From: an uncultured Actinomycetes bacterium
GTDB lineage: Bacteria > Actinomycetota > Acidimicrobiia > Acidimicrobiales > RAAP-2
Assembly (NCBI GenBank): GCA_903875425.1
Contig: CAIQWC010000043.1
Span: 2,354 to 66,353, forward strand
DNA length: 64,000 nt
Direction of reading: 5' to 3'
A program made the translations under genes and the position numbers. The notes under the pieces were generated by a model. The model saw nothing but the letters and a program-made list of their open reading frames with translations, had not been told where the DNA came from and did no database searches. This document shows, in pieces, positions 3,203 through 64,000 of this stretch (position 1 is the first letter of the stretch; each line of letters begins with the position of its first letter).

Positions 3203-4668
3203 CCGAAGATACTGCCTTGCAGGAATTAGACACGGCCCTTCTTGGTCATAGCGATGCTTGGTACCGCCGCACTGACCCCTTTGGGTTGGTCGCCTTCATC
3301 CTCGGATCCATTCCCGGTTTCTTTGTCGTTGGTAATTTTGGCTTTGCCGACGATTACGGCCAAATGTCACTCACTCAGCAACAGATACTTGGCTGGGCAA
3401 AGTCCATGGTGGGTTGTGGACGGCCCGTGCAGTTAGTGGCCCTCGCGATTTGGAAATGCTTCCCCTCGATTAGCGATCTATGGGGTTATCACGTCGTCGC
3501 TGCGCTTGTCGGTGGCCTCTGCGCGTGGACACTCTACGCATTTATTCGCAGTCTTGGGAGAAGCGCTGCGAGTTCGCTCTTTATTGGTCTTGGTTCCTTG
3601 TGTTTAGTCCCCGGTTTCTTAATCCAAATTGCCTGGCTTCAGATGTTCCCGTTTTTACTCGCGTCTGTGGCAAGCATCACCGGAGCGCGATGGCTCATCG
3701 AGGCAAAGCATCGGCCGTGGATTTCAGGACTACTCTTCGCCCTAGCGTGGCTTTGCTATCAGCCTTCAGCGCTCATCGGTATCATCCTGATCGCCGCCAC
3801 CCCTTTTCTCGCCATGAGCGATGTGGCCATGAACTCATGGCGGCAGTTGTGGTGGAGACGCTTAGTGCAAGCCTCGATACCGCTAGCCGTCGCCGGGATA
3901 GCCTCCGTGATCATGGTGAAGATTGCTGTTGCGGCCCACTGGGCCAAGGCGGGCGGTCGCCATCAGTTCTTGGGCAATGTATCGGGCCACATCCATGCAT
4001 GGCTCCATAACCAGTTGCCGATGACCTTTCGACTCTGGAGCCCCTTTGGTCTTTCGCACCGGGTTCTTGTAATCGAATTAATCTTCGGGCTGATAACCGT
4101 AGGGGTGGCACTTCGTCGCCGGCGAGTGCTTGAATCTGTGATTGCTGTTTTGTTCATGGGAGCGGGTAGCTATCTTCTCGCCTTTGCGACTGCCGCCTTT
4201 GACGCAGATGCTCGAGCTCTTGTTGCGTCACAGGTGGCGGTGGCGCTCATGGCGTTGACTGGTATGGCGCTGACGGTTGAATGGGCTCTCGCGCGATGGA
4301 GATCGCTCAGTGTGGCACTGCTCGTGGCCATGAGTGTGCTCCTGAGCGTGCACGCAAGCATGCTGTTGCGTAATGACTACGCCAGGCCCAACAAGGTTGA
4401 ACTCCACCTCATTAGCCAAGCATTGAACTCCAAAAAGTGCAGGAATCTCGACTACATCGTGCTTGCTCATTCGCCGACGTCAGCACTGGGTCCCGCTGAA
4501 GCAAATGAGTTTGGTTCACCGACGACGAAGGCTCCGTGGATGTCACAGAAATTAGTTCAATTGGTCTGTGCTGCGGCAGGAGTTCCCCACCTTGCGCTTC
4601 CGCACGTGGTGAACAGTGTTACTCAACCAGCTCGGACGCTCGATTTCAACACTTTGCTCAATCCTTGA
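3199..4668 (+). CDS. Polytopic membrane protein, GT-C/GtrII-like putative glycosyltransferase (function uncertain)
   Basis: Track ORF 3136..4668. The in-frame ATG at 3199 forms an ATGA overlap with the VOC gene stop. It has more than 10 hydrophobic helices and an acidic FGFADDYGQ motif in the first predicted loop, as seen in GT-C enzymes. Confidence 0.5.
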   Translation: MTEDTALQELDTALLGHSDAWYRRTDPFGLVAFILGSIPGFFVVGNFGFADDYGQMSLTQQQILGWAKSMVGCGRPVQLVALAIWKCFPSISDLWGYHVVAALVGGLCAWTLYAFIRSLGRSAASSLFIGLGSLCLVPGFLIQIAWLQMFPFLLASVASITGARWLIEAKHRPWISGLLFALAWLCYQPSALIGIILIAATPFLAMSDVAMNSWRQLWWRRLVQASIPLAVAGIASVIMVKIAVAAHWAKAGGRHQFLGNVSGHIHAWLHNQLPMTFRLWSPFGLSHRVLVIELIFGLITVGVALRRRRVLESVIAVLFMGAGSYLLAFATAAFDADARALVASQVAVALMALTGMALTVEWALARWRSLSVALLVAMSVLLSVHASMLLRNDYARPNKVELHLISQALNSKKCRNLDYIVLAHSPTSALGPAEANEFGSPTTKAPWMSQKLVQLVCAAAGVPHLALPHVVNSVTQPARTLDFNTLLNP

Positions 4669-4732: not shown

Positions 4733-5905
4733 ATGGCACAAGCGTGGTTTGAAACCGTTGCAGAAGCGCAACGTCGAGCTCAAAAGCGCCTCCCCTCTTC
4801 GGTGTACTCGGCGCTGATTGCGGGTTCTGAGAAGGGCCGTAGTTCCTCAGACAATCTTGATGCCTTTGATGAACTTGGTTTTGCCCCTCATGTGGCGAAT
4901 CTTCCCCGAAACCGCGATCTAACGACGACGGTCATGGGTCTCAACCTACCGATGCCGATAGTAATTTCGCCCACGGGGGTTCAAGCCGTTCACCCTGATG
5001 GTGAGGTAGCCGTGGCTCGAGCGGCGGTCGCTCGGGGGATCCCCATGGGTTTATCGAGCTTTGCTTCGAAATCCATCGAGGACGTATCGGCGACCGGTGC
5101 TTCGGTCTTGTTCCAGATGTACTGGTCAGGAACGCGAGATCAAATGCTGGAGCGGCTTGACCGAGCAAAGCGTGCTGGCGCAAAGGCGATCATTGTGACG
5201 CTCGATTGGAGCTTTTCCAATGGCCGAGATTGGGGCAGTCCTTGGATCCCCGATAAGCTTGGTCTCAAGAACATGATCAAGCTTGCACCTCAGGGCTTGA
5301 GCCGTCCGTCTTGGCTGTGGTCTTGGGTCAAGTCAGGAGCGCTACCAACGCTGGGAACGCCCAACATGGCAGCGGCGGGTGAGACGGTCCCGACCTTCTT
5401 CGGTGCTTACTACGAATGGATGCAGACGCCTTTACCCACGTGGGAGGACCTTGCTTGGTTGCGTAGCGCGTGGGAGGGACCTTTCTTAGTAAAGGGCGTT
5501 TGCCGCGTCGATGATGCAAAGCGAGTTCGTGACCTTGGAGCAACAGCCTTATCGGTGTCAAACCATGGCGGTAATAACGTTGACTCGACGCCGTCACCAT
5601 TGCGGGCACTAGCAGCCGTAGTCGACGTAGTGGGTTCAGAGATAGACGTGTTGCTCGATGGCGGTGTGCGTCGTGGTGGCGATGTCGTAAAGGCTGTCTC
5701 GCTAGGCGCGAAGGCAGTCATGATTGGTCGGGCCTATCTCTGGGGACTCGCGGCCAATGGACAAGCGGGTGTCGAAAACGTACTCGATGTGCTCCGATCA
5801 GGTATCGACTCGACCATGACCGGCATCGGGGCAGCTTCTGTTCGTGAACTCAGCCGGGCGGATGTCGTCGCGCCCAAAGACTTCCACCGCTGCTTAGGCG
5901 CCTAA
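4733..5905 (+). CDS. FMN-dependent alpha-hydroxy-acid dehydrogenase/oxidase (LldD/MftD-like)
   Basis: The N-terminus MAQAWFETVAEAQRRAQKRLPSSVYSALIAGSEKG resembles the mycobacterial LldD1/MftD type. It is a TIM-barrel FMN family member (SNHGGNN, LLDGGVRRGGDVVKA). Confidence 0.8.
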   Translation: MAQAWFETVAEAQRRAQKRLPSSVYSALIAGSEKGRSSSDNLDAFDELGFAPHVANLPRNRDLTTTVMGLNLPMPIVISPTGVQAVHPDGEVAVARAAVARGIPMGLSSFASKSIEDVSATGASVLFQMYWSGTRDQMLERLDRAKRAGAKAIIVTLDWSFSNGRDWGSPWIPDKLGLKNMIKLAPQGLSRPSWLWSWVKSGALPTLGTPNMAAAGETVPTFFGAYYEWMQTPLPTWEDLAWLRSAWEGPFLVKGVCRVDDAKRVRDLGATALSVSNHGGNNVDSTPSPLRALAAVVDVVGSEIDVLLDGGVRRGGDVVKAVSLGAKAVMIGRAYLWGLAANGQAGVENVLDVLRSGIDSTMTGIGAASVRELSRADVVAPKDFHRCLGA

Positions 5906-7934: not shown

Positions 7935-8519
7935 ATGGAGCTCCTTGGACGAATTGATCCCTCCCTGCCCCTCCTTGTGGTGGCTGTTGCGCTCGAGGCT
8001 CAAGAGATTCATACCGATTTACCAATTTTGATCACCGGGGTCGGCAAAGTGGCATCGGGCCAAGCCATCATGGAGACGCTCGCCGGCTTACCCCAAACGC
8101 ATCGCCCGAAGCAGGTGATTAACCTCGGCACGGCCGGTGCTCTCGTCGACGACATTGAGGGTACCCATGTTATTGGTCGTGTCCTTCAGCACGATCTTGA
8201 CGGCGTCGCTATCGAAGCGTTGACGGGAGAAAATCCAACGCCTGACCTAGTCCTTGGAAACGGACCAACGCTGGCGACTGGTGATCGATTTATTTCACGC
8301 CAACGCGATAGAGAACAGCTAGCCCGTCGTGCACAACTCGTGGATATGGAGGGCTACGCAATAGCCAGCGCAGCCCACCGTCTTGGTATTAGCGTGACCT
8401 TGGTTAAGCACGTAAGTGACCGCGCTAACGAAGCCGCTGCGGGGATATGGGCTGACGTTGTTACGACGTGTAGTCGTCACTTAGGAATATGGCTCCAAGA
8501 GCAGAACTTTGCTTTATAG
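7935..8519 (+). CDS. PNP_UDP_1-family nucleosidase (MTA/SAH nucleosidase or futalosine hydrolase-like)
   Basis: ITGVGKVASG, NLGTAGAL and VDMEGYAIASAA motifs. The start is taken at ATG 7935 (MELLGRID). The track ORF starts at 7842. Confidence 0.6.
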   Translation: MELLGRIDPSLPLLVVAVALEAQEIHTDLPILITGVGKVASGQAIMETLAGLPQTHRPKQVINLGTAGALVDDIEGTHVIGRVLQHDLDGVAIEALTGENPTPDLVLGNGPTLATGDRFISRQRDREQLARRAQLVDMEGYAIASAAHRLGISVTLVKHVSDRANEAAAGIWADVVTTCSRHLGIWLQEQNFAL

Positions 8520-44607: not shown

Positions 44608-46008
44608 ATGGCGGGCCGCGTCATAGTGGTTGGGCTTGGGCCGGCCGGCCAAGACTTACTCAGCGCTGCAACGCTGCGCCAGCTCTCAGGGCACCCCCAT
44701 GTGATCTTGCGCACGCGGGTTCATCCGGCTGCCGATGCCTTCCCTAACGCGGAGAGTTTTGATCATCTCTACGAGCAAGCCGAATCCTTTGACCGTCTCT
44801 ACGCAGGAATCGTCGATGACCTTGCCCTCAGGGCCGAGCAATACGGAGAGGTGGTCTACGCCGTTCCGGGCTCGCCTTTGGTGGCGGAGCACACGGTTGA
44901 ACTCTTGCGTCAGCGACCTGATCTTGACGTCATCATCGAGCCGGCTCTGAGTTTTCTCGATCTGTGCTGGAATGCTCTCGAAATCGATCCTGTCGCTAAA
45001 CAAGTACAACTCCTTGATGCGCATCAACTCGGAGACTCGCTTGATTACGGCGGCCCGCTCTTAATTGGACAAACGCACTCTCGCGCAATCTTGAGCGAGG
45101 TCAAGCTCAGTATCGATACCGATATTGCCGGAGATCTCAAGGTGGTCATACTGCACCATCTCGGCCTTCCTGATCAACAGATCCTTTCCTTAGCGTGGAA
45201 TGAACTCGATCACTTTGAAGACGCTGACCACTTGACCTCGCTCTACATCGAGGGCTTGCGCAGCGTGGAGGATGCATCACGTGACCTCGTGGCTATGATG
45301 CGTCGACTTCGAGATGAATGTCCATGGGATCAAAAGCAAACGCATGGTTCCTTGGCCCGACACCTCTTGGAAGAGGCCTACGAGAGTTTGGAAGCGATTG
45401 AAGAACTGAGTCGCTGTCTCGACCAAGGCGATGATTTGAAGCTTGACGCGGCCTATGCCCACGCGGAGGAAGAGCTCGGAGATGTGGTCTTCCAAGTAGT
45501 GTTCCACGCCCACCTCGCAGCCGAGCAAGGCCGCTTTGACCTTGCTCGCGTCTTCGACGGGGTGCGTGAGAAACTCGTCAGTCGTCACCCTCACGTGTTT
45601 GGCGATGCGGTGGCTGAGACCGCAGACGAGGTTGCGAAGCGTTGGGAAGAGATTAAGCGTGAGGAGAAAGGAAGAAACTCGGTGACCGAGGGCATTCCTA
45701 TCGCCTTGCCATCGCTAGCGCGCTACGTGAAACTTTGCCGTAAAGCCGCTGCTATTGGCATGGAAGCGCCCGAACGCGACGCCACGATTGCTCATCTTCG
45801 TCGTAGCCTTGAAACGCTCCACGAGACCACCACGGCTGTCGATGACGCAACGGCTAGTCAGCATGGGGCTGCAGCACGCGATATCGGTGACCTCCTTTGC
45901 GGTGTGGCCGATTTAGCCCACCAACTCGGGGTGGATCCTGAGGAAACACTTCGCCAGCGTGCTTCGATACTGGCTACGGAGATCCAAGATTTCGAGGATG
46001 AGCGCTAA
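44608..46008 (+). CDS. mazG: MazG-family NTP pyrophosphohydrolase fused to an N-terminal tetrapyrrole-methylase-like domain (YabN architecture)
   Basis: The N-terminus VIVVGLGPAG...VVYAVPGSPLVAE is TP_methylase-like. The C-terminus CPWDQKQTH...EEAYESLEAIE...EELGDVVFQVVFHA...RHPHVFG is the MazG core. Confidence 0.8.
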   Translation: MAGRVIVVGLGPAGQDLLSAATLRQLSGHPHVILRTRVHPAADAFPNAESFDHLYEQAESFDRLYAGIVDDLALRAEQYGEVVYAVPGSPLVAEHTVELLRQRPDLDVIIEPALSFLDLCWNALEIDPVAKQVQLLDAHQLGDSLDYGGPLLIGQTHSRAILSEVKLSIDTDIAGDLKVVILHHLGLPDQQILSLAWNELDHFEDADHLTSLYIEGLRSVEDASRDLVAMMRRLRDECPWDQKQTHGSLARHLLEEAYESLEAIEELSRCLDQGDDLKLDAAYAHAEEELGDVVFQVVFHAHLAAEQGRFDLARVFDGVREKLVSRHPHVFGDAVAETADEVAKRWEEIKREEKGRNSVTEGIPIALPSLARYVKLCRKAAAIGMEAPERDATIAHLRRSLETLHETTTAVDDATASQHGAAARDIGDLLCGVADLAHQLGVDPEETLRQRASILATEIQDFEDER

Positions 46009-46067
46009 ATCTGGCACGGTGCCCCAGGTAGAGCTAGTGGTAGCGGTAGCGTTGGTGTCACCATTGA

Positions 46068-47891
<1,824 letters not shown>

Positions 47892-47895
<4 letters not shown>

Positions 47896-48398
47896 TCATG
47901 TGGTCGGCAACGCCGGCCGACGTCGAGCTCGTCACCCGCCTGCTTGGACGTAGCCCGGAGGGTCCCTTCCGTGTCGTGGTGAGGCGAGATGGTCGAGATC
48001 CCGTTGTCATAGAAAACGCCCCTCACTTACTAGATGGCACACCCATGCCGACGCTCTACTGGCTCCTTGATCCCCCCCTTCGTGATGCTGTCAGTCGCGT
48101 CGAAGCAGCGGGAGGTGTCAAGCGCATCCAAGAGATGGTTGATCCAGATCTGGTGGCCGCGGCTCACGATACCTATCGGCGCCGGCGTGAGAGTCTTGTT
48201 GAACGCCATGATCTTCCCCAGCCATCTGGTGGCGTGGGCGGAACCCGTCGTGGCCTCAAGTGTCTTCACGCCCACGTGGCTTACTTCTTAGCGGGGGGCG
48301 ATGATGAGGTGGGTCGCGTGGTAGCTAACGAGGTCAAAGAAGCCTTACTCGGTGTTGCACCGGTGAATGATCTGCCTGTGTCAGGCTCTACGCCGTGA
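47892..48398 (+). CDS. DUF501-domain protein
   Basis: PMPTLYWL and LKCLHAHVAYFLAGGDD are characteristic of DUF501. ATGA overlap on the upstream side and GTGA overlap on the downstream side. Confidence 0.65.
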
Positions 48399-49336
48399 CG
48401 AGCGATTACCGAGCCGCGATCGACTGCGGAACGAACTCGACGAGGCTCTTGATTATCGATAGCCATGGCGTCAGCGTGTTTCGCGACATGAGAATTACAC
48501 GACTCGGCCAAGGCGTTGATGCCACGGGTGAATTAGCTCCAGAAGCGCTGCAGCGAACCCTGAGCGTGCTGCGCGACTATCGCTCCCTTTGTGATTCGTA
48601 CGGCGTGAGCCGGGGGCGCCTTGCTGCCACCTCGGCGGCGAGAGATGCTTCGAATGGCTCTGAATTTCTCGCTGAAGCAAGCCGCATTAGTGGCTTCGAG
48701 GCCGAGATTATCTCGGGCGTTGAAGAAGGCGAACTGAGTTTTGCGGGAGCCATGGCCGACCTAGATTCCTGCGGCGCCGATGATCTGGTGATCGATATTG
48801 GTGGCGGATCCACCGAGATCGTCTTGGTTCGAAACACCGTCTTGAAGGCCTACTCAATGCAGGTGGGCTGTGTTCGGATAACGGAACGCGCCCTCAGCGG
48901 TGATCCGCCAGGGACGGGCGAAGTTGCCGAGGCCAAAGCCCTGATCGCCAGCCAACTCGAACTCGCGATTACGGCCATTCCCGAATTGCTAGCGCTAAAG
49001 CCAGGTAGTCGACTCGTTGGGCTAGCCGGCACGGTCGCCACGCTGAGCATGATTGACCAAGGACGTTTGGTCTACGACCGTGACGAGGTCCATCATCACT
49101 GGTTGAGCGCCGAGCGGATTTCTTATTGGGCTAGCGAACTATCGACTATGCCCGTGGCGAAGCGTATCCTCCTCCCGGGGATGGTCGAGGGCCGTCAAGA
49201 CGTTATTCTCGGCGGTGTGCTCGTTCTCGAAGCAGTACTCACGCGTCTTGGCCTCGATGGTTGTCTCAGCTCAGAAGCCGACATCCTCGATGGTCTTGCT
49301 GCATCGGTGTCCGCGTCCCCGAGCGCTCAGGGCTAG
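48395..49336 (+). CDS. Ppx/GppA-family phosphatase (exopolyphosphatase-like)
   Basis: AAIDCGTNSTRLLI, ATSAARDASN and DIGGGSTE (ASKHA fold motifs). Confidence 0.8.
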   Translation: MTSDYRAAIDCGTNSTRLLIIDSHGVSVFRDMRITRLGQGVDATGELAPEALQRTLSVLRDYRSLCDSYGVSRGRLAATSAARDASNGSEFLAEASRISGFEAEIISGVEEGELSFAGAMADLDSCGADDLVIDIGGGSTEIVLVRNTVLKAYSMQVGCVRITERALSGDPPGTGEVAEAKALIASQLELAITAIPELLALKPGSRLVGLAGTVATLSMIDQGRLVYDRDEVHHHWLSAERISYWASELSTMPVAKRILLPGMVEGRQDVILGGVLVLEAVLTRLGLDGCLSSEADILDGLAASVSASPSAQG

Positions 49337-49370
49337 GCGTTAGGGGTGCCGTAATGGGATCGCAGGAGCC

Positions 49371-50003
49371 ATGGTTATGAGGTTGGGTCGGACGGGAAAC
49401 CCGATACCTTTAAGCAAGCACGGTCGCCGGGTGACGATTCGTACCTTGGATCCGACCGACTATGAGCAGTGGATAGAGATTCGCGAGCGCTGTCGCGATT
49501 GGTTACTGCCTTGGGAGCCGCGCCCGGCCGGAGCGACGTATCCGCCAGAAGATCGTCACAGTTTTGCAAGCCGGTGTGCCATGCGAGAGCGTGAGCGGCA
49601 ACTAGGTGGCGGTTTTGGATTTGGCATCTTCGTTGGACCTCGCCTAGTAGGCGAATTAACCCTCTCTTCGGTAATCCGCGGCCCATTTCAAAATGCAGTG
49701 ATTGGATACTGGATCGATAGCGCCCAAGCTGGAAAGGGCTACGTTCCCGAAGCGGTAGCGGTTACGCTGGCCTACGCTTTTGACGAACTCGGGCTGCACC
49801 GCATCGAGATCGCTATCATTCCGAGTAACGAGCGATCTCGTCGAGTGGTGGAGAAGCTCGATATCCGCTTCGAAGGCGTTGCTCAGCGTTTTTTACAAAT
49901 TAATGGTGTGTGGGAGGACCATGCACGATATGCCATCACGGCCGAGGAATGGCGCGAGCGGCGCGACGAGTTCCTCAAAGACTGGATTCTTCCCGAGCTT
50001 TAG
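49371..50003 (+). CDS. GNAT-family N-acetyltransferase (RimJ/RimL-like)
   Basis: IGYWIDSAQAGKGYVPEAV...LGLHRIEIAIIPSNERSRRVVEKL is typical of the RimJ-type acetyl-CoA binding region. Confidence 0.7.
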   Translation: MVMRLGRTGNPIPLSKHGRRVTIRTLDPTDYEQWIEIRERCRDWLLPWEPRPAGATYPPEDRHSFASRCAMRERERQLGGGFGFGIFVGPRLVGELTLSSVIRGPFQNAVIGYWIDSAQAGKGYVPEAVAVTLAYAFDELGLHRIEIAIIPSNERSRRVVEKLDIRFEGVAQRFLQINGVWEDHARYAITAEEWRERRDEFLKDWILPEL

Positions 50004-51083: not shown

Positions 51084-51156
51084 GGGGGCGTAGCCCAATG
51101 GCAGAGGCAGGGCGCTTAAACCGCCTCCAGTGAGGGTTCGAGTCCCTTCGCCCCCA
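51084..51156 (+). tRNA. Atypical tRNA with anticodon UAA (nominally Leu) but class-I shape (5-nt variable loop)
   Basis: Folded by hand. Acceptor GGGGGCG/CGCCCCC, discriminator A, D stem GCC/GGC (3 bp, C13/A22 mismatch), anticodon arm GGGCG-CTTAAAC-CGCCT, variable CCAGT, T arm GAGGG-TTCGAGT-CCCTT. 73 nt, no encoded CCA. Confidence 0.65.
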
Positions 51157-51186
51157 CTAAATAGTCAATTTCAGGCCCATTACGGC

Positions 51187-52026
51187 GTGAGGGTGGGCAG
51201 TCACCCTGTATCGTGGTCACCCGTGGCACAGAGCCCTACAGGCAAAGCAGTATCGAAGGTCGCTTCCACCGGCGGCGGGCGCACCTATCGAGCACAACGT
51301 CCAAACACGTATTACGCGGTTCTGGTCGTTATCGTGGTGCTGGGCCTGGCCTCAGTCGTCGCTGCCCGTTCGAGTTACAAAAATGGCGCCGTGACGACGA
51401 CGAGCGCTGCTTCGCTTCCTCAAGCAGGTACCACCACCTACGCTGCGCTGGCTTTTGATTTCTGTGGTGTCTTGCAGCCAACACTCCCCGCGGCACCTGT
51501 GGCATTGTCGTCCATTCAGGTGATTGGAAACGGTGTTATCAAGATTGCTCCTAAGGATGCAACGACGGCTGGATCTAATTCCACGATGGCGTTGGTTGCC
51601 AAGGGTTACCCGGGATTAAAGTTGAGTGCTACGTCGGTTTCATATCCCTCGAACGCGATAAGCAATGCTTCGGTCACCTACAAGAACGGTGAAACATGCC
51701 CAGCGGGTACGCCTGACGCGGGTAAAACGGCTCAAGTTGGCGCAGCGCTGTGGTCAAGCTTCGTGTCTAAGACCCCGGTGATTAATGCGAACCCGGCAAG
51801 CGCACACGTGCAGGGAAGCTCGCTGATCACGGTTTCCTTTGTTCCTTCTGGCGCCACGGTATTGCGTCCTTCGCAAGCGTCGATTACTCAAATGCTGAAA
51901 GAAAACGCGGGAAGTGTAGCGACGACGTCGACGTCGACGTCGACGTCGACGACCTCGACCACCACGTCTCCGTCAACAACGACCACGACGATGGCACGTA
52001 CCTCCACAACTACCAAGCAGGGATAG
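51187..52026 (+). CDS. Membrane-anchored extracytoplasmic protein with a Thr/Ser-rich C-terminal tail; function unknown
   Basis: Track ORF 51130..52026 begins inside the tRNA. In-frame GTG candidates are at 51187, 51193 and 51223, so the start is uncertain. TM anchor YYAVLVVIVVLGLASVVAA, a ~170-aa ordered-looking domain, then TSTSTSTSTTSTTTSPSTTTTT. Confidence 0.5.
   Translation: MRVGSHPVSWSPVAQSPTGKAVSKVASTGGGRTYRAQRPNTYYAVLVVIVVLGLASVVAARSSYKNGAVTTTSAASLPQAGTTTYAALAFDFCGVLQPTLPAAPVALSSIQVIGNGVIKIAPKDATTAGSNSTMALVAKGYPGLKLSATSVSYPSNAISNASVTYKNGETCPAGTPDAGKTAQVGAALWSSFVSKTPVINANPASAHVQGSSLITVSFVPSGATVLRPSQASITQMLKENAGSVATTSTSTSTSTTSTTTSPSTTTTTMARTSTTTKQG
51921..51953. repeat. Palindromic hexanucleotide microsatellite (GACGTC)x4 with flanking GAC triplets, coding
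   Basis: 51924-51947 is GACGTC x4 (each unit is self-complementary) within GAC GACGTC... GAC GAC. It encodes the (TS)n tail. Confidence 0.8.
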
Positions 52027-61351: not shown

Positions 61352-64000
61352 ATGGAGAGCCAGGTACCCGCAGTTGTCGCCCTTGTGGTGGCGGCAGAAC
61401 CCGACAGTCTGTTGGCTGCCACGCTGAGCACGCTAGCTGCCCAAGATTACCCCGCCTTAAGCATTCTGGTTGTTAGCAGTTCTAGGGAAGCCGACATCGA
61501 AGCACAGGTGGCGCGAAGTGCTCCCGGGTCCTACGTCAGCCGAGTTCCTGAGAATCGGGGATTCGGCGCAGCAGTCAACCATGGATTGGCACAAATCGAA
61601 GGAGCCGATTTCGTTCTGGTCTGTCACGATGATGTCAGTGTGGCACCCAATGCTGTGTCGGCGATGGTGGAGGAGAGTTTCCGCTCCAACGCTGGCGTAG
61701 TGACTCCCAAGGTGGTTACCTATGCCGACCATCGAGTCTTGCTGCACGTCGGCCAAGCGGTTGACCGATTCGGAACTCTCGTAGAGCGAGTTCAGCAAGG
61801 GGAGGTAGACCAAGGTCAACATGATGCCGTCCGAGATGTGTTTGTCGCTCCTGGCGGCGTGACGCTGTTTCGAAAAGATTTACTAACTACCTTGAAGGGC
61901 TACGACGAGCGCTACGTGGCGCTTGGTGATGATCTTGAAATTTCTTGGCGCGCTCACCTGCTTGGTTCTCGAGTTGTGTGTGCACCCTCAGCGGTGATCG
62001 CTCACGCCGAGCGACTGGGCTCGGGCTTTGCAGCGCTACCGGCTCCCGCTGGCGAAACGCAGCAACTTAGTCGTGAGCGGCTCTATCGTCGCAACGAACT
62101 ACGTAGCTTGTGGCTCTACTGGGGGACCGCGGCACGAATTTGGACCTTGCTCCTGCTTGCCCTGTTTAATGTGGCGGAAATCGTTGTTGCAGTGTTTGGT
62201 ACGGATATCGAACGGGCAATCAATATTCGAGAATCTTGGCGCGCCCTATGGCGTGAGAGAAAAACCAATCACGAGGCTCGGAAGCAGATTCGTATCTTGC
62301 GGACGATTTCTGACCACGCCATTCACAAGCAGATGACGCCTGGTCCGGTTCGGCTCCGTCGTTTTATCGTGGCCTTAGCTCGACATGGCTTTGACGTGGC
62401 GCGAGGAGCACTAGTTCCTGAGGAACATACTGAAGATAGTGCGAGTAGCAGCTTTGGTGGAGCGTTCAGCGATGATGAGACCTTCGACGAACTTGACGAA
62501 CTTGCTGAACGAAGCGCACGACGCAGACGTTGGGGATCGGCTCAAGCGCTCAGCGTCCTCACTGTGGTGATCGCGGCAGCATTTGCCTTAGGTTCGCGCA
62601 ACCTTCTCGGAGCGCGCTTACCCATGATTGGACAATTAATACCGCTTCGATCGTGGGGCGCAATGTTCCATATGGTGACGGGTTCGTGGCAGAGTGCTGG
62701 CCTCGGAACTACAGCGCCAGGACATCCGGGTTACGCCGTGATCTTCTTGCTAGGGATTCTTACCCTTGGCCATGTTGGCTTCGTGATTCGAACCTTGCTC
62801 CTCGTTTCACTTCCCTTCGGCGCCATTGGCGTCGCTCGCTTGATTGGACCGATCGCGACGGGAAGAGCGCGGGTGCTTGCTGGAGCCACCTACTTGGCTA
62901 CCGGCCTAGGCATCAACGCCATAAGCGCGGGATCCGTGAGTACAACCTTCGCGCTCGGGGCCATGCCGTTCTTGCTACGACGAGTGCTTCGTCTTGCCCG
63001 GGTAGCGCCTTTCGACCAGTCGTTTAGTCCTAAAACTCGCGTTGGAACTCGTGGATGGAGAATGTCGGCGACTGGTCAAGCCGCTTCGCTTGCGCTGCTT
63101 TTGACCGTCGTTGGCGCCATTAGCCCCGCTACGATCCCGGTCCTTGAGATCGCGGCGCTCAGCGTCTTGTTCCTTGGTTTGGTTTTGAGTCCTGGAGAGG
63201 CATTCGTCGGCCAAGGTCGTATCGCGAGCGCAGTGATCGGCTCACTGGTTTTGTTGGCGCCCCTGACCATACCGGGGCTCGTCAGCGGATCTGGCTTCTT
63301 GGGTATTTTTGGAACCGCGCAGGCTTCGTGGGCATCTCCGGGCTTCGGAGGTCTCCTTCGCTTTGCGACGGGTCCCTTTTCCGTCAGTTGGGCTGCGTGG
63401 CTTATTCCGGCTGCCGCTACCTGCGCGCTCTTATTAGTTCGAGAGGAACGCTTCGTCCTAGCAACTCGTCTCGCAGCCATCGCGGCCGTTTCGTATTGCT
63501 TCAGTGCTTTGGTGGCGCGCGATGTCATGGGCAACTTTGCACCGACGCTCAGCGTGGCCCTTGCCCCCGCCGCCGTCGGTGTTGCCTGTTTGAGCGGCCT
63601 CTTGGTCTCCGCGTTTGAGTTCGACATCCAATCCTTACACTTTGGCTGGAGACAGGTGATGGCCGTGGGCGGCATTATCGCAGCCATTGTGGGACTTGTG
63701 CCCTTCGTGCTGGCGGTGGGAAATGGTCGTTGGCAGTTAGCGACGACGGGATACGGAGACTCATTAAGCTTTGTTTCAAGCAGCCTGCGACCGGGGGACC
63801 GGGTTCTATGGCTGGGGCAGCCTTCAGCAATTCCCGCCGCCAGTTGGTCGGTCAATAAGGATCTGGCATGGGCTACGACCACCGAGGGTCTGTCGGGACC
63901 AAGCAACCTTTTCAATCCCGCCAGTGCGACTGCCGCATCACAGATTACGGGTCCTATCAAGCAGGCCCTAGCTGGTCGAACGGTGACGCTTGGACACTTG
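61352..64000 (+). CDS. Family 2 glycosyltransferase fused to a very large polytopic membrane domain; 3' end outside the window (absent from the ORF track)
   Basis: I translated it manually from ATG 61352 (GGGAG SD). The reading frame shows no stop through base 64000 (883 codons). N-terminus VVALVVAAEP...AQDYPALSILVVSS...ENRGFGAAVNHG...VLVCHDDV (GT2, DxD). From about residue 400 onward there are many hydrophobic helices. Confidence 0.7.
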   Translation, partial: MESQVPAVVALVVAAEPDSLLAATLSTLAAQDYPALSILVVSSSREADIEAQVARSAPGSYVSRVPENRGFGAAVNHGLAQIEGADFVLVCHDDVSVAPNAVSAMVEESFRSNAGVVTPKVVTYADHRVLLHVGQAVDRFGTLVERVQQGEVDQGQHDAVRDVFVAPGGVTLFRKDLLTTLKGYDERYVALGDDLEISWRAHLLGSRVVCAPSAVIAHAERLGSGFAALPAPAGETQQLSRERLYRRNELRSLWLYWGTAARIWTLLLLALFNVAEIVVAVFGTDIERAINIRESWRALWRERKTNHEARKQIRILRTISDHAIHKQMTPGPVRLRRFIVALARHGFDVARGALVPEEHTEDSASSSFGGAFSDDETFDELDELAERSARRRRWGSAQALSVLTVVIAAAFALGSRNLLGARLPMIGQLIPLRSWGAMFHMVTGSWQSAGLGTTAPGHPGYAVIFLLGILTLGHVGFVIRTLLLVSLPFGAIGVARLIGPIATGRARVLAGATYLATGLGINAISAGSVSTTFALGAMPFLLRRVLRLARVAPFDQSFSPKTRVGTRGWRMSATGQAASLALLLTVVGAISPATIPVLEIAALSVLFLGLVLSPGEAFVGQGRIASAVIGSLVLLAPLTIPGLVSGSGFLGIFGTAQASWASPGFGGLLRFATGPFSVSWAAWLIPAAATCALLLVREERFVLATRLAAIAAVSYCFSALVARDVMGNFAPTLSVALAPAAVGVACLSGLLVSAFEFDIQSLHFGWRQVMAVGGIIAAIVGLVPFVLAVGNGRWQLATTGYGDSLSFVSSSLRPGDRVLWLGQPSAIPAASWSVNKDLAWATTTEGLSGPSNLFNPASATAASQITGPIKQALAGRTVTLGHL

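What the first reader, a model, noticed from the sequence alone, without database searches (positions are those of the whole stretch)
51084..51156. Class-I-shaped tRNA carrying the Leu anticodon UAA
Seen in the sequence: a 73-nt cloverleaf has a perfect 7-bp acceptor stem (GGGGGCG/CGCCCCC) and discriminator A73. The T loop is a canonical TTCGAGT. The anticodon loop is C-U-UAA-A-C, so with U33 and A37 in place the anticodon is unambiguously UAA. The variable loop is only 5 nt, and the D stem has 3 Watson-Crick pairs plus a C13/A22 mismatch.

Established knowledge: bacterial tRNA-Leu, like tRNA-Ser and tRNA-Tyr, are class II tRNAs with a long variable arm. The actinobacterial UUA decoder (the bldA type) is one of these.

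Inference: this gene could be any of the following:
- an unusual short-arm tRNA-Leu;
- a tRNA of another identity that has acquired a UUA-reading anticodon (recoding or mistranslation potential);
- a tRNA used outside the ribosome, for example by aminoacyl-tRNA-dependent transferases in envelope or peptide biosynthesis (it sits among glycosyltransferase and envelope genes);
- a decaying tRNA gene.

UUA codons are used in genes of this window, for example at 61457-61459.
Basis: partly seen in the sequence, partly recalled or inferred. Interest (0 to 1): 0.6.

Follow-up and report, generated by a model that had tools for sequence, protein, structure and literature searches.

The report
Short-armed leucine tRNA of Actinobacteria
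This is a real, conserved leucine tRNA for the codon UUA that lacks the usual long side arm; short-armed leucine tRNAs were shown in Streptomyces in 2019 to be charged with leucine, so this gene is an ordinary member of an unusual but known kind.

Summary
The 73-nt gene at 51084-51156 (+) is a genuine tRNA: ARAGORN calls Leu(UAA) and Rfam tRNA scores 55.7 bits.

It is not peculiar to this genome. The organism is an Acidimicrobiales actinobacterium. The same short-arm tRNA with anticodon UAA occurs in 33 of 36 genomes of its family, with compensatory stem changes. A scan of public genomes with only its D-arm signature gave 123 tRNAs, mostly from Actinomycetota. Of these, 121 carry a leucine anticodon (UAA, CAA, UAG, CAG or GAG).

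No long-arm tRNA-Leu(UAA) was found in this genome or in a 99%-complete relative, so this is the only UUA reader found. UUA is common here, at 7 per 1000 codons and in 83% of genes. It aligns with leucine exactly as the other five leucine codons do.

Type I tRNA-Leu charged by a single LeuRS is published for Streptomyces coelicolor (Fan et al. 2019, PMC6614811). This scan has already reported the same thing on many other genomes.

Points specific to this locus:
- Short-arm and long-arm UAA genes occupy the same chromosomal place in sister families.
- The single LeuRS lacks the leucine-specific domain (LSD) that the Streptomyces study found critical.

Recoding, non-ribosomal use and decay are not supported.

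The parts
51084..51156 (+). Type I (short variable loop) tRNA-Leu(UAA) gene, 73 nt, CCA not encoded
   Evidence: ARAGORN; Rfam RF00005 at 55.7 bits; conserved in 33 of 36 family genomes
51084..51090 (+). Acceptor stem, 5' strand GGGGGCG. It pairs with 51149-51155 (CGCCCCC). The discriminator A73 is at 51156.
   Evidence: Sequence. Pair 5-68 switches G-C to A-U and pair 6-67 switches C-G to U-A among relatives.
51093..51108 (+). D arm GCCC-AAUGGCAG-AGGC: a 3-bp stem closed by a C13/A22 mismatch, with A14, A15 and the GG of the D loop
   Evidence: Sequence. The long-arm Leu tRNAs of the same genome have the same layout, GCGG...ACGC with G13/A22.
51110..51126 (+). Anticodon arm GGGCG-CUUAAAC-CGCCU; anticodon UAA at 51117-51119, flanked by U33 and A37
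   Evidence: Sequence; ARAGORN; the loop is invariant in 30 relatives apart from position 38
51127..51131 (+). 5-nt variable loop CCAGU. U48 could pair with A15.
   Evidence: Sequence. The variable loop is 5 nt in 148 of 158 distinct short-arm Leu tRNAs, and 124 of them end in AGU.
51132..51148 (+). T arm GAGGG-UUCGAGU-CCCUU
   Evidence: Sequence; Rfam alignment
44608..50003 (+). Context only. This upstream cluster anchors the locus by gene order: a MazG-domain gene, enolase, a small ORF, DUF501, Ppx/GppA and a GNAT acetyltransferase.
   Evidence: Pfam. The same cluster lies upstream of short-arm Leu(UAA) genes in G033, G011 and G043, and of long-arm Leu(UAA) genes in G045, G049, G040, G046, G054 and G050. 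Enolase, DUF501 and ppx also lie near the short-arm Leu(UAA) gene in many Actinomycetes.

Best explanation
The gene encodes the organism's ordinary UUA-decoding leucine tRNA in the 'type I' architecture, with a 5-nt variable loop in place of a long arm. The genome's single bacterial-type LeuRS charges it with leucine, and it is used on the ribosome. LeuRS does not read the anticodon or need the long arm. It relies on core and elbow features that this tRNA keeps: U8-A14, A15/U48, the D-loop GG, the T loop and A73. The tRNA belongs to the same kind as the type I tRNA-Leu(CAA) of Streptomyces coelicolor.

Shown here:
- It is a conserved tRNA.
- It is the only UAA-anticodon tRNA found.
- UUA means Leu in this genome.
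- There is one LeuRS.

Inferred, not shown: leucylation by this particular LeuRS, and expression.
For: 1. It is a real tRNA.
2. It is conserved in 33 of 36 genomes of the family, each a different genus, always with anticodon UAA. Compensatory changes occur in the acceptor, anticodon and T stems.
3. A public-genome scan with the D-arm signature, unconstrained at the anticodon, returned 123 tRNAs. Of these, 121 carry a Leu anticodon: UAA 72, CAA 18, UAG 17, CAG 10, GAG 4. A body found only with the anticodons of both leucine codon boxes is what a Leu identity read outside the anticodon predicts.
4. Across 158 distinct sequences the stems are 94-100% paired and A73 is present in 157 of 158.
5. 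This genome (97.7% complete) has long-arm Leu CAG, GAG, CAA and UAG but no long-arm UAA. In relative G033 (99% complete, 45 tRNAs) the nine long-arm tRNAs are Leu UAG/GAG/CAG/CAA, Tyr and four Ser, so it also has no long-arm UAA. A pattern for long-arm UAA tRNAs found none in the 36 family genomes, yet found them in 12 sister families.
6. UUA is common: 3300 codons, 7.05 per 1000, in 1101 of 1324 crude genes.
7. TTA positions have a Leu consensus in homologues at 48%. The other five Leu codons give 46-53%. TTA at 47085-47087 encodes the invariant Leu of the enolase [10 protein letters not shown] motif.
8. There is one LeuRS, matching TIGR00396 at 952 bits, with no second copy.
9. Fan et al. 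[quoted passage not shown]
Against: - There is no direct evidence of expression or charging for this gene.
- The LeuRS here lacks the leucine-specific domain that the Streptomyces study found necessary for type I charging. The published mechanism therefore cannot simply be carried over.
- The genome is a 46-contig assembly missing some tRNAs, such as Ser-GCU and Ala-UGC. Absence of a long-arm Leu(UAA) rests on the family-wide pattern, not on this genome alone.
- D-arm conservation in the public set is partly built in by the search pattern.
Confidence: 0.9

Rival explanations
1. The tRNA has a non-leucine identity and has acquired a UUA-reading anticodon, so UUA is recoded or mistranslated. Known examples of this kind are tRNA-ProX of Streptomyces and the nematode nev-tRNAs.
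For: The class I shape and the AAUGGCAGA D loop superficially resemble Gly, Gln and Asn tRNAs of the same genome. Charging has not been measured.
Against: - UUA aligns with Leu just as the other five Leu codons do, including an invariant enolase Leu.
- The same body carries only Leu anticodons in 121 of 123 public hits.
- It has A73 and a 3-bp D stem with a 13/22 mismatch, like the long-arm Leu tRNAs.
- No extra aaRS paralogue lies next to it.
- It is the only UUA reader found, in a genome where 83% of genes use UUA.
Confidence: 0.03
2. The tRNA is dedicated to a non-ribosomal aminoacyl-tRNA-dependent transferase in envelope or peptide biosynthesis, as suggested by the neighbouring glycosyltransferase and sugar-nucleotide genes.
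For: A GT2 glycosyltransferase, an NTP transferase and an epimerase flank the gene.
Against: - The immediate neighbours are not conserved even within the family. What is conserved is the enolase-DUF501-ppx-GNAT anchor, shared across the phylum and with the long-arm Leu(UAA) genes.
- No other UAA-anticodon tRNA is available to serve the ribosome.
- The elbow is canonical, with the D-loop GG and a UUCGA T loop.
- No Fem, L/F-transferase or cyclodipeptide synthase gene is adjacent.
Confidence: 0.02
3. It is a bldA-like regulatory tRNA, in which a rare UUA codon gates expression of a small set of genes.
For: It has the same anticodon as bldA and comes from the same phylum.
Against: UUA is not rare here. 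It makes up 7% of Leu codons and occurs in 1101 of 1324 genes, including enolase, RpoB/C and the aaRSs. S. coelicolor has only 145 UUA codons (PMC6614811).
Confidence: 0.03
4. It is a decaying tRNA pseudogene or an assembly or sequencing artefact.
For: There is a C13/A22 mismatch in the D stem. CCA is not encoded. The minimum-free-energy fold alone does not give the exact cloverleaf.
Against: - The mismatch is conserved in 154 of 158 relatives (partly built in by the search pattern). It mirrors the G13/A22 of the long-arm Leu tRNAs.
- The covariance score is 55.7 bits.
- The same gene appears in 33 independent assemblies, with compensatory changes.
Confidence: 0.01

Closest known systems
Type I tRNA-Leu(CAA) of Streptomyces coelicolor (Fan, Huang, Ji and Wang, Nucleic Acids Res 2019; PMC6614811)
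   Same: It is an actinobacterial tRNA-Leu with a 5-nt variable loop, U8-A14 and A73. It coexists with long-arm tRNA-Leu isoacceptors and a single leuS gene. It shares the D-arm signature that retrieves CAA, UAA, UAG, CAG and GAG short-arm Leu tRNAs across Actinomycetota.
   Different: - The isoacceptors are reversed: here UAA is the short-arm form and CAA is long-armed, whereas in S. coelicolor CAA is short and UAA (bldA) is long.
- The LeuRS here has 817 aa and lacks the LSD. ScoLeuRS is longer, and its LSD was needed for type I charging.
- UUA is a common codon here.
bldA, the tRNA-Leu(UAA) of Streptomyces
   Same: Same anticodon, same phylum, and the same role of decoding UUA as leucine.
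   Different: bldA is a type II tRNA with a 17-nt variable arm and reads a very rare, regulatory codon. This tRNA is type I and reads a housekeeping codon.
Metazoan mitochondrial tRNA-Leu(UUR)
   Same: It is a type I tRNA-Leu with anticodon UAA and A73.
   Different: The mitochondrial tRNA has relaxed D and T loops and its own LeuRS. ScoLeuRS does not charge it. The tRNA here has a canonical bacterial elbow.
Long-arm (type II) tRNA-Leu(UAA) of sister Acidimicrobiales families
   Same: It has the same anticodon loop, CUUAAAC. It sits in the same place downstream of the enolase-DUF501-ppx-GNAT cluster. The G050 copy shares 81% of comparable positions, including the T arm GAGGG/CCCUC.
   Different: - The variable arm is 13-19 nt instead of 5 nt.
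- Position 9 is G instead of A.
- The D stem is GCGG/ACGC instead of GCCC/AGGC.

Membership tests
Type I tRNA-Leu of Actinobacteria (Fan et al. 2019) | Cloverleaf tRNA carrying a leucine anticodon | tested here: met
   ARAGORN Leu(taa) and Rfam tRNA at 55.7 bits
Type I tRNA-Leu of Actinobacteria (Fan et al. 2019) | Short variable loop of 5 nt; the paper found the length, not the bases, to matter | tested here: met
   CCAGU at 51127-51131; the loop is 5 nt in 148 of 158 relatives
Type I tRNA-Leu of Actinobacteria (Fan et al. 2019) | U8-A14 tertiary pair and a canonical D/T elbow | tested here: met
   U8, A14, the D-loop GG and UUCGA are present in the sequence. This shows the bases are present, not that they interact.
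Type I tRNA-Leu of Actinobacteria (Fan et al. 2019) | Coexists with type II tRNA-Leu isoacceptors and a single LeuRS in one cell | tested here: met
   Four long-arm Leu tRNAs; one leuS at 952 bits, with no second copy
Type I tRNA-Leu of Actinobacteria (Fan et al. 2019) | Leucylated by the cognate LeuRS | not testable with these tools
   Indirect only: UUA aligns with Leu and this is the only UUA reader found
Type I tRNA-Leu of Actinobacteria (Fan et al. 2019) | Type I charging depends on the LSD of LeuRS. This describes the published mechanism and does not define the tRNA itself. | tested here: not met
   The LeuRS goes from ...TQGMIR straight to MDGSKMSKS. About 57 residues of the Thermus LSD (578-636) have no counterpart.
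bldA-type regulatory tRNA-Leu(UAA) | The cognate UUA codon is very rare and confined to auxiliary genes | tested here: not met
   3300 UUA codons, in 83% of crude genes including core genes
Recoding or mistranslating tRNA (tRNA-ProX, nev-tRNA type) | The codon read by the tRNA aligns with an amino acid other than its standard meaning | tested here: not met
   TTA has a Leu consensus at 48%, against 46-53% for the other Leu codons
Non-proteinogenic tRNA for cell-wall or peptide transferases | Redundant with a proteinogenic isoacceptor of the same anticodon | tested here: not met
   No other UAA-anticodon tRNA in G000 or G033, and none by pattern in 36 family genomes

The most novel reading that the evidence does not exclude
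Within this one order, the short-arm UAA tRNA arose in place from the resident long-arm tRNA-Leu(UAA) gene. This would involve arm loss plus remodelling of position 9 and D-stem pairs 12-23 and 13-22 towards the pan-actinobacterial type I signature. The resulting tRNA is charged by a LeuRS with no leucine-specific domain. If so, long-arm to short-arm conversion is recurrent and easy, and the LSD-dependent recognition described for Streptomyces is not the general mechanism.
Probability: 0.35. Interest if true: 0.35.

Novelty: new member of a known kind. Interest (0 to 1): 0.15.

Why it matters
The finding matters little in itself. It corrects the textbook assumption that all bacterial tRNA-Leu are long-armed, and shows that annotation flags of this kind in Actinomycetota are false alarms.

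Two local points may interest tRNA and synthetase specialists:
- Long-arm and short-arm UUA readers occupy the same locus in sister families of one order. This gives a natural series for studying how a class II tRNA becomes class I.
- The LeuRS that must serve both forms here lacks the domain that the only biochemical study held responsible for type I recognition.

Tried and rejected
- BLAST with a long-arm Leu(CAA) to collect all Leu tRNAs of relatives. It found only the CAA orthologues and was too insensitive. I replaced it with a pattern scan and an Rfam tRNA census of G033.
- Two family hits of the long-arm pattern, in G001 and G017. They are not tRNA-Leu: ARAGORN finds nothing in one and tRNA-Arg(UCU) in the other.
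- Single-sequence minimum-free-energy folding. It gives the acceptor and T arms but mispairs the D and anticodon region. The z-score of -2.4 is uninformative for a tRNA.
- Sigma-70 promoter scan around the gene. It found none.
- A link between LeuRS type and tRNA type. The short LSD-less LeuRS occurs in families with either form of tRNA-Leu(UAA), so I found no correlation.
- Two further papers (PMC3561953, PMC11122139). They say nothing on short-arm tRNA-Leu.

Full report
**1. Observation**

ARAGORN finds two tRNA genes in the window, one of them tRNA-Leu(taa) at 51084-51157. Rfam's tRNA model matches 51084-51156 over its full length at 55.7 bits, against a gathering score of 29, with only the 13/22 pair flagged as non-canonical.

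- a 7-bp acceptor stem GGGGGCG/CGCCCCC, and A73;
- U8 and A9;
- a D stem GCCC/AGGC with a C13/A22 mismatch;
- an anticodon loop CUUAAAC;
- a 5-nt variable loop CCAGU;
- a T loop UUCGAGU.

The only error is the example codon. 61457-61459 reads TTA on the plus strand, but it is the TAA stop of a minus-strand ORF at 61457..61822. Genuine UUA codons are plentiful, with 161 in the window's crude gene calls.

**2. The gene is conserved, not an accident of this genome**

The genome holding the window has 1.61 Mb in 46 contigs and is 97.7% complete. A DNA search of 60 relatives found the same gene at 89-96% identity in 33 of 36 genomes of the family, each from a different genus. It also found it in a few other families of the order.

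All 30 copies I extracted are called tRNA-Leu(taa). Aligned by structure, they show compensatory changes:
- acceptor pair 5-68, G-C to A-U;
- acceptor pair 6-67, C-G to U-A;
- anticodon stem, GGGCG/CGCCU to GGGUG/CACCU or GAGCG/CGCUU;
- T stem, GAGGG/CCCUC to GUGGG/CCCAC.

The anticodon loop and the C13/A22 mismatch stay fixed. This rules out a pseudogene or an artefact.

**3. The body is a leucine body**

The long-arm Leu tRNAs of the same genome have U8 G9, a D stem GCGG/ACGC (three pairs plus G13/A22), the D loop AAU(N)GGCAG, and A73. The short-arm gene has the same layout with A9 and GCCC/AGGC.

I scanned one genome per species of the public collection with that D-arm signature plus a class I spacing to the T loop. 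The anticodon was left free.

The 123 tRNAs in those records carry UAA (72), CAA (18), UAG (17), CAG (10) and GAG (4). Two more have an odd loop that ARAGORN reads as AAA. So 121 of 123 carry an anticodon from one of the two leucine codon boxes, and none carries an anticodon for another amino acid. This is what is expected of a tRNA whose synthetase ignores the anticodon.

The hosts are mostly Actinomycetota: Mycobacterium, Nocardia, Gordonia, Rhodococcus, Corynebacterium, Arthrobacter, Microbacterium, Amycolatopsis, Nocardioides, Ilumatobacteraceae and Acidimicrobiales. A minority are Planctomycetota, Poribacteria, Rokubacteria, Myxococcota and others. The nearest copies are labelled Acidimicrobiales or Acidimicrobiaceae (L105, L140, L176), which places the organism.

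Across 158 distinct short-arm sequences:
- every stem position is 94-100% paired, with many pair types;
- A73 is present in 157;
- the variable loop is 5 nt in 148.

The D-arm figures in that set are biased by the search pattern.

**4. It is the only UUA reader found, and UUA means leucine**

ARAGORN on the whole genome gives 42 tRNAs. Long-arm Leu CAG, GAG, CAA and UAG are present, and a long-arm UAA is not.

A few tRNAs are missing from this draft (Ser-GCU, Ala-UGC), so I checked two other ways:
- A pattern for a UAA anticodon followed by a long arm and a T loop found no true hit in the 36 family genomes. It did find long-arm tRNA-Leu(UAA) in 12 sister families.
- In relative G033 (99% complete, 7 contigs), Rfam finds 45 tRNAs. 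The nine long ones are Leu UAG, GAG, CAG and CAA, Tyr, and Ser UGA, CGA, GGA and GCU.

UUA is frequent. There are 3300 codons, or 7.05 per 1000, making up 7% of Leu codons and occurring in 1101 of 1324 crude genes. These include RpoB, RpoC, EF-G and the aaRSs.

In tblastn alignments of this genome's proteins to loci from other taxa, I excluded subject TTA codons and required at least three homologues per position. The consensus residue at 124 TTA positions is Leu in 48%. The figures for TTG, CTT, CTC, CTA and CTG are 46-53%, with the same V, I, A and M spectrum (the cruder version is).

A concrete case is TTA at 47085-47087. It encodes the Leu of the enolase motif [10 protein letters not shown], which is Leu in all three solved homologues shown. 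Recoding is therefore excluded for practical purposes.

**5. The charging enzyme**

The genome has one bacterial-type LeuRS (contig C3:3635-6088, 817 aa, TIGR00396 at 952 bits) and no second copy.

Aligned to the solved Thermus, Neisseria and E. coli enzymes, it passes from ...TQGMIR directly to MDGSKMSKS. The leucine-specific domain, Thermus residues about 578-636, is absent.

The same short enzyme is found throughout the family and in many sister families, whatever form their tRNA-Leu(UAA) takes. Other families have a LeuRS of about 930-990 aa.

**6. What is known**

Fan et al. (Nucleic Acids Res 2019, PMC6614811) described S. coelicolor as having four long-arm tRNA-Leu and one type I tRNA-Leu(CAA) with a 5-nt variable loop. 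They showed that:
- the single LeuRS leucylates both types;
- the length of the variable loop and U8-A14 matter;
- the LSD of ScoLeuRS confers type I charging.

The kind is therefore known and biochemically validated. That paper treats it as rare. The scan in section 3 shows it is widespread in the phylum, and with the UAA anticodon more often than CAA.

Earlier reports of this scan reached the same verdict on other genomes. I found the paper and the distribution independently before reading them.

**7. What is specific to this locus**

Upstream of the gene lie a MazG-domain gene, enolase, a small ORF, DUF501, Ppx/GppA and a GNAT acetyltransferase. A GT2 gene follows on the other strand.

The same cluster precedes two kinds of gene:
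- the short-arm Leu(UAA) gene in G033, G011 (own family) and G043 (another family);
- the long-arm Leu(UAA) gene in G045, G049, G040, G046 and G054, and in inverted orientation in G050.

Enolase, DUF501 and ppx also lie near the short-arm Leu(UAA) gene in many Actinomycetes. The two forms are thus positional counterparts.

I compared positions outside the type-diagnostic D stem and position 9. Beyond its own clade, the closest body is the long-arm Leu(UAA) of G050, at 81%, with the same T arm and a similar acceptor stem. Short-arm tRNAs of other Actinomycetota reach at most 74%.

This hints at conversion in place within the order. But 47 positions cannot settle the direction, and gene conversion is an alternative.

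In sister genome G042 the roles are reversed: UAA is long-armed and UAG short-armed.

**8. Verdict**

This is a genuine, functional, conserved type I tRNA-Leu(UAA). It is the housekeeping UUA reader of an Acidimicrobiales bacterium and a new member of a known kind. Interest is low. The LSD-less LeuRS and the long/short pair at a single locus are the only points worth a specialist's second look.

Noticed in passing
True in-frame TTA codons include 47085-47087 and 47139-47141 in enolase.
   Followed up: yes
G000 contig C3:3635-6088 (outside the window; locus L218): The single LeuRS (817 aa) has no leucine-specific domain between QGM and KMSKS. The same short form occurs across the family and in many sister families, while other families of the order have a LeuRS of about 930-990 aa.
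   Followed up: partly
L208 (G042:C1, tRNA at 5237-5312) and L212 (tRNA at 7956-8041): A 100%-complete sister genome has the reverse arrangement: a short-arm tRNA-Leu(UAG) and a long-arm tRNA-Leu(UAA). Ilumatobacteraceae and Amycolatopsis records also carry short-arm UAG forms.
   Followed up: partly
L092, L112, L132, L135 (Nocardiopsis); L129, L179 (Streptosporangiaceae); L116, L184: These are short-arm Leu-type tRNAs with an unusual anticodon region ...CCCCCUAAAAGGG.... The loop reads either as C33 followed by UAA or as anticodon AAA. ARAGORN calls two of them Phe(aaa).
   Followed up: no
L091 (Planctomycetota MAG, 3557-3778) and L171 (Pseudomonadota MAG): Each record has a tandem array of three short-arm Leu-type tRNAs with different Leu anticodons, outside Actinomycetota. 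Single copies occur in Poribacteria, Rokubacteria, Myxococcus, Nostoc, Chitinophaga, Elusimicrobia and Acidobacteriota records. Whether they sit on mobile elements was not checked.
   Followed up: no
L047 (G017:C5, tRNA at 1451-1525) and L055 (G011:C1, tRNA at 1162-1254): Relatives carry a tRNA-Ile(UAU) and a 93-nt tRNA that ARAGORN calls Ser(AGA).
   Followed up: no
window 51130-52026: The ORF as listed starts at a GTG inside the tRNA gene, so its real start is probably downstream. It has no Pfam match, but it has homologues next to the tRNA in a few relatives (L003, L008, L011, L216, L217).
   Followed up: partly
G000 whole genome: The draft lacks tRNA-Ser(GCU), Ala(UGC), Arg(CCU) and Pro(CGG) and has two tRNA-Ser(CGA). 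The gaps are probably assembly gaps.
   Followed up: no
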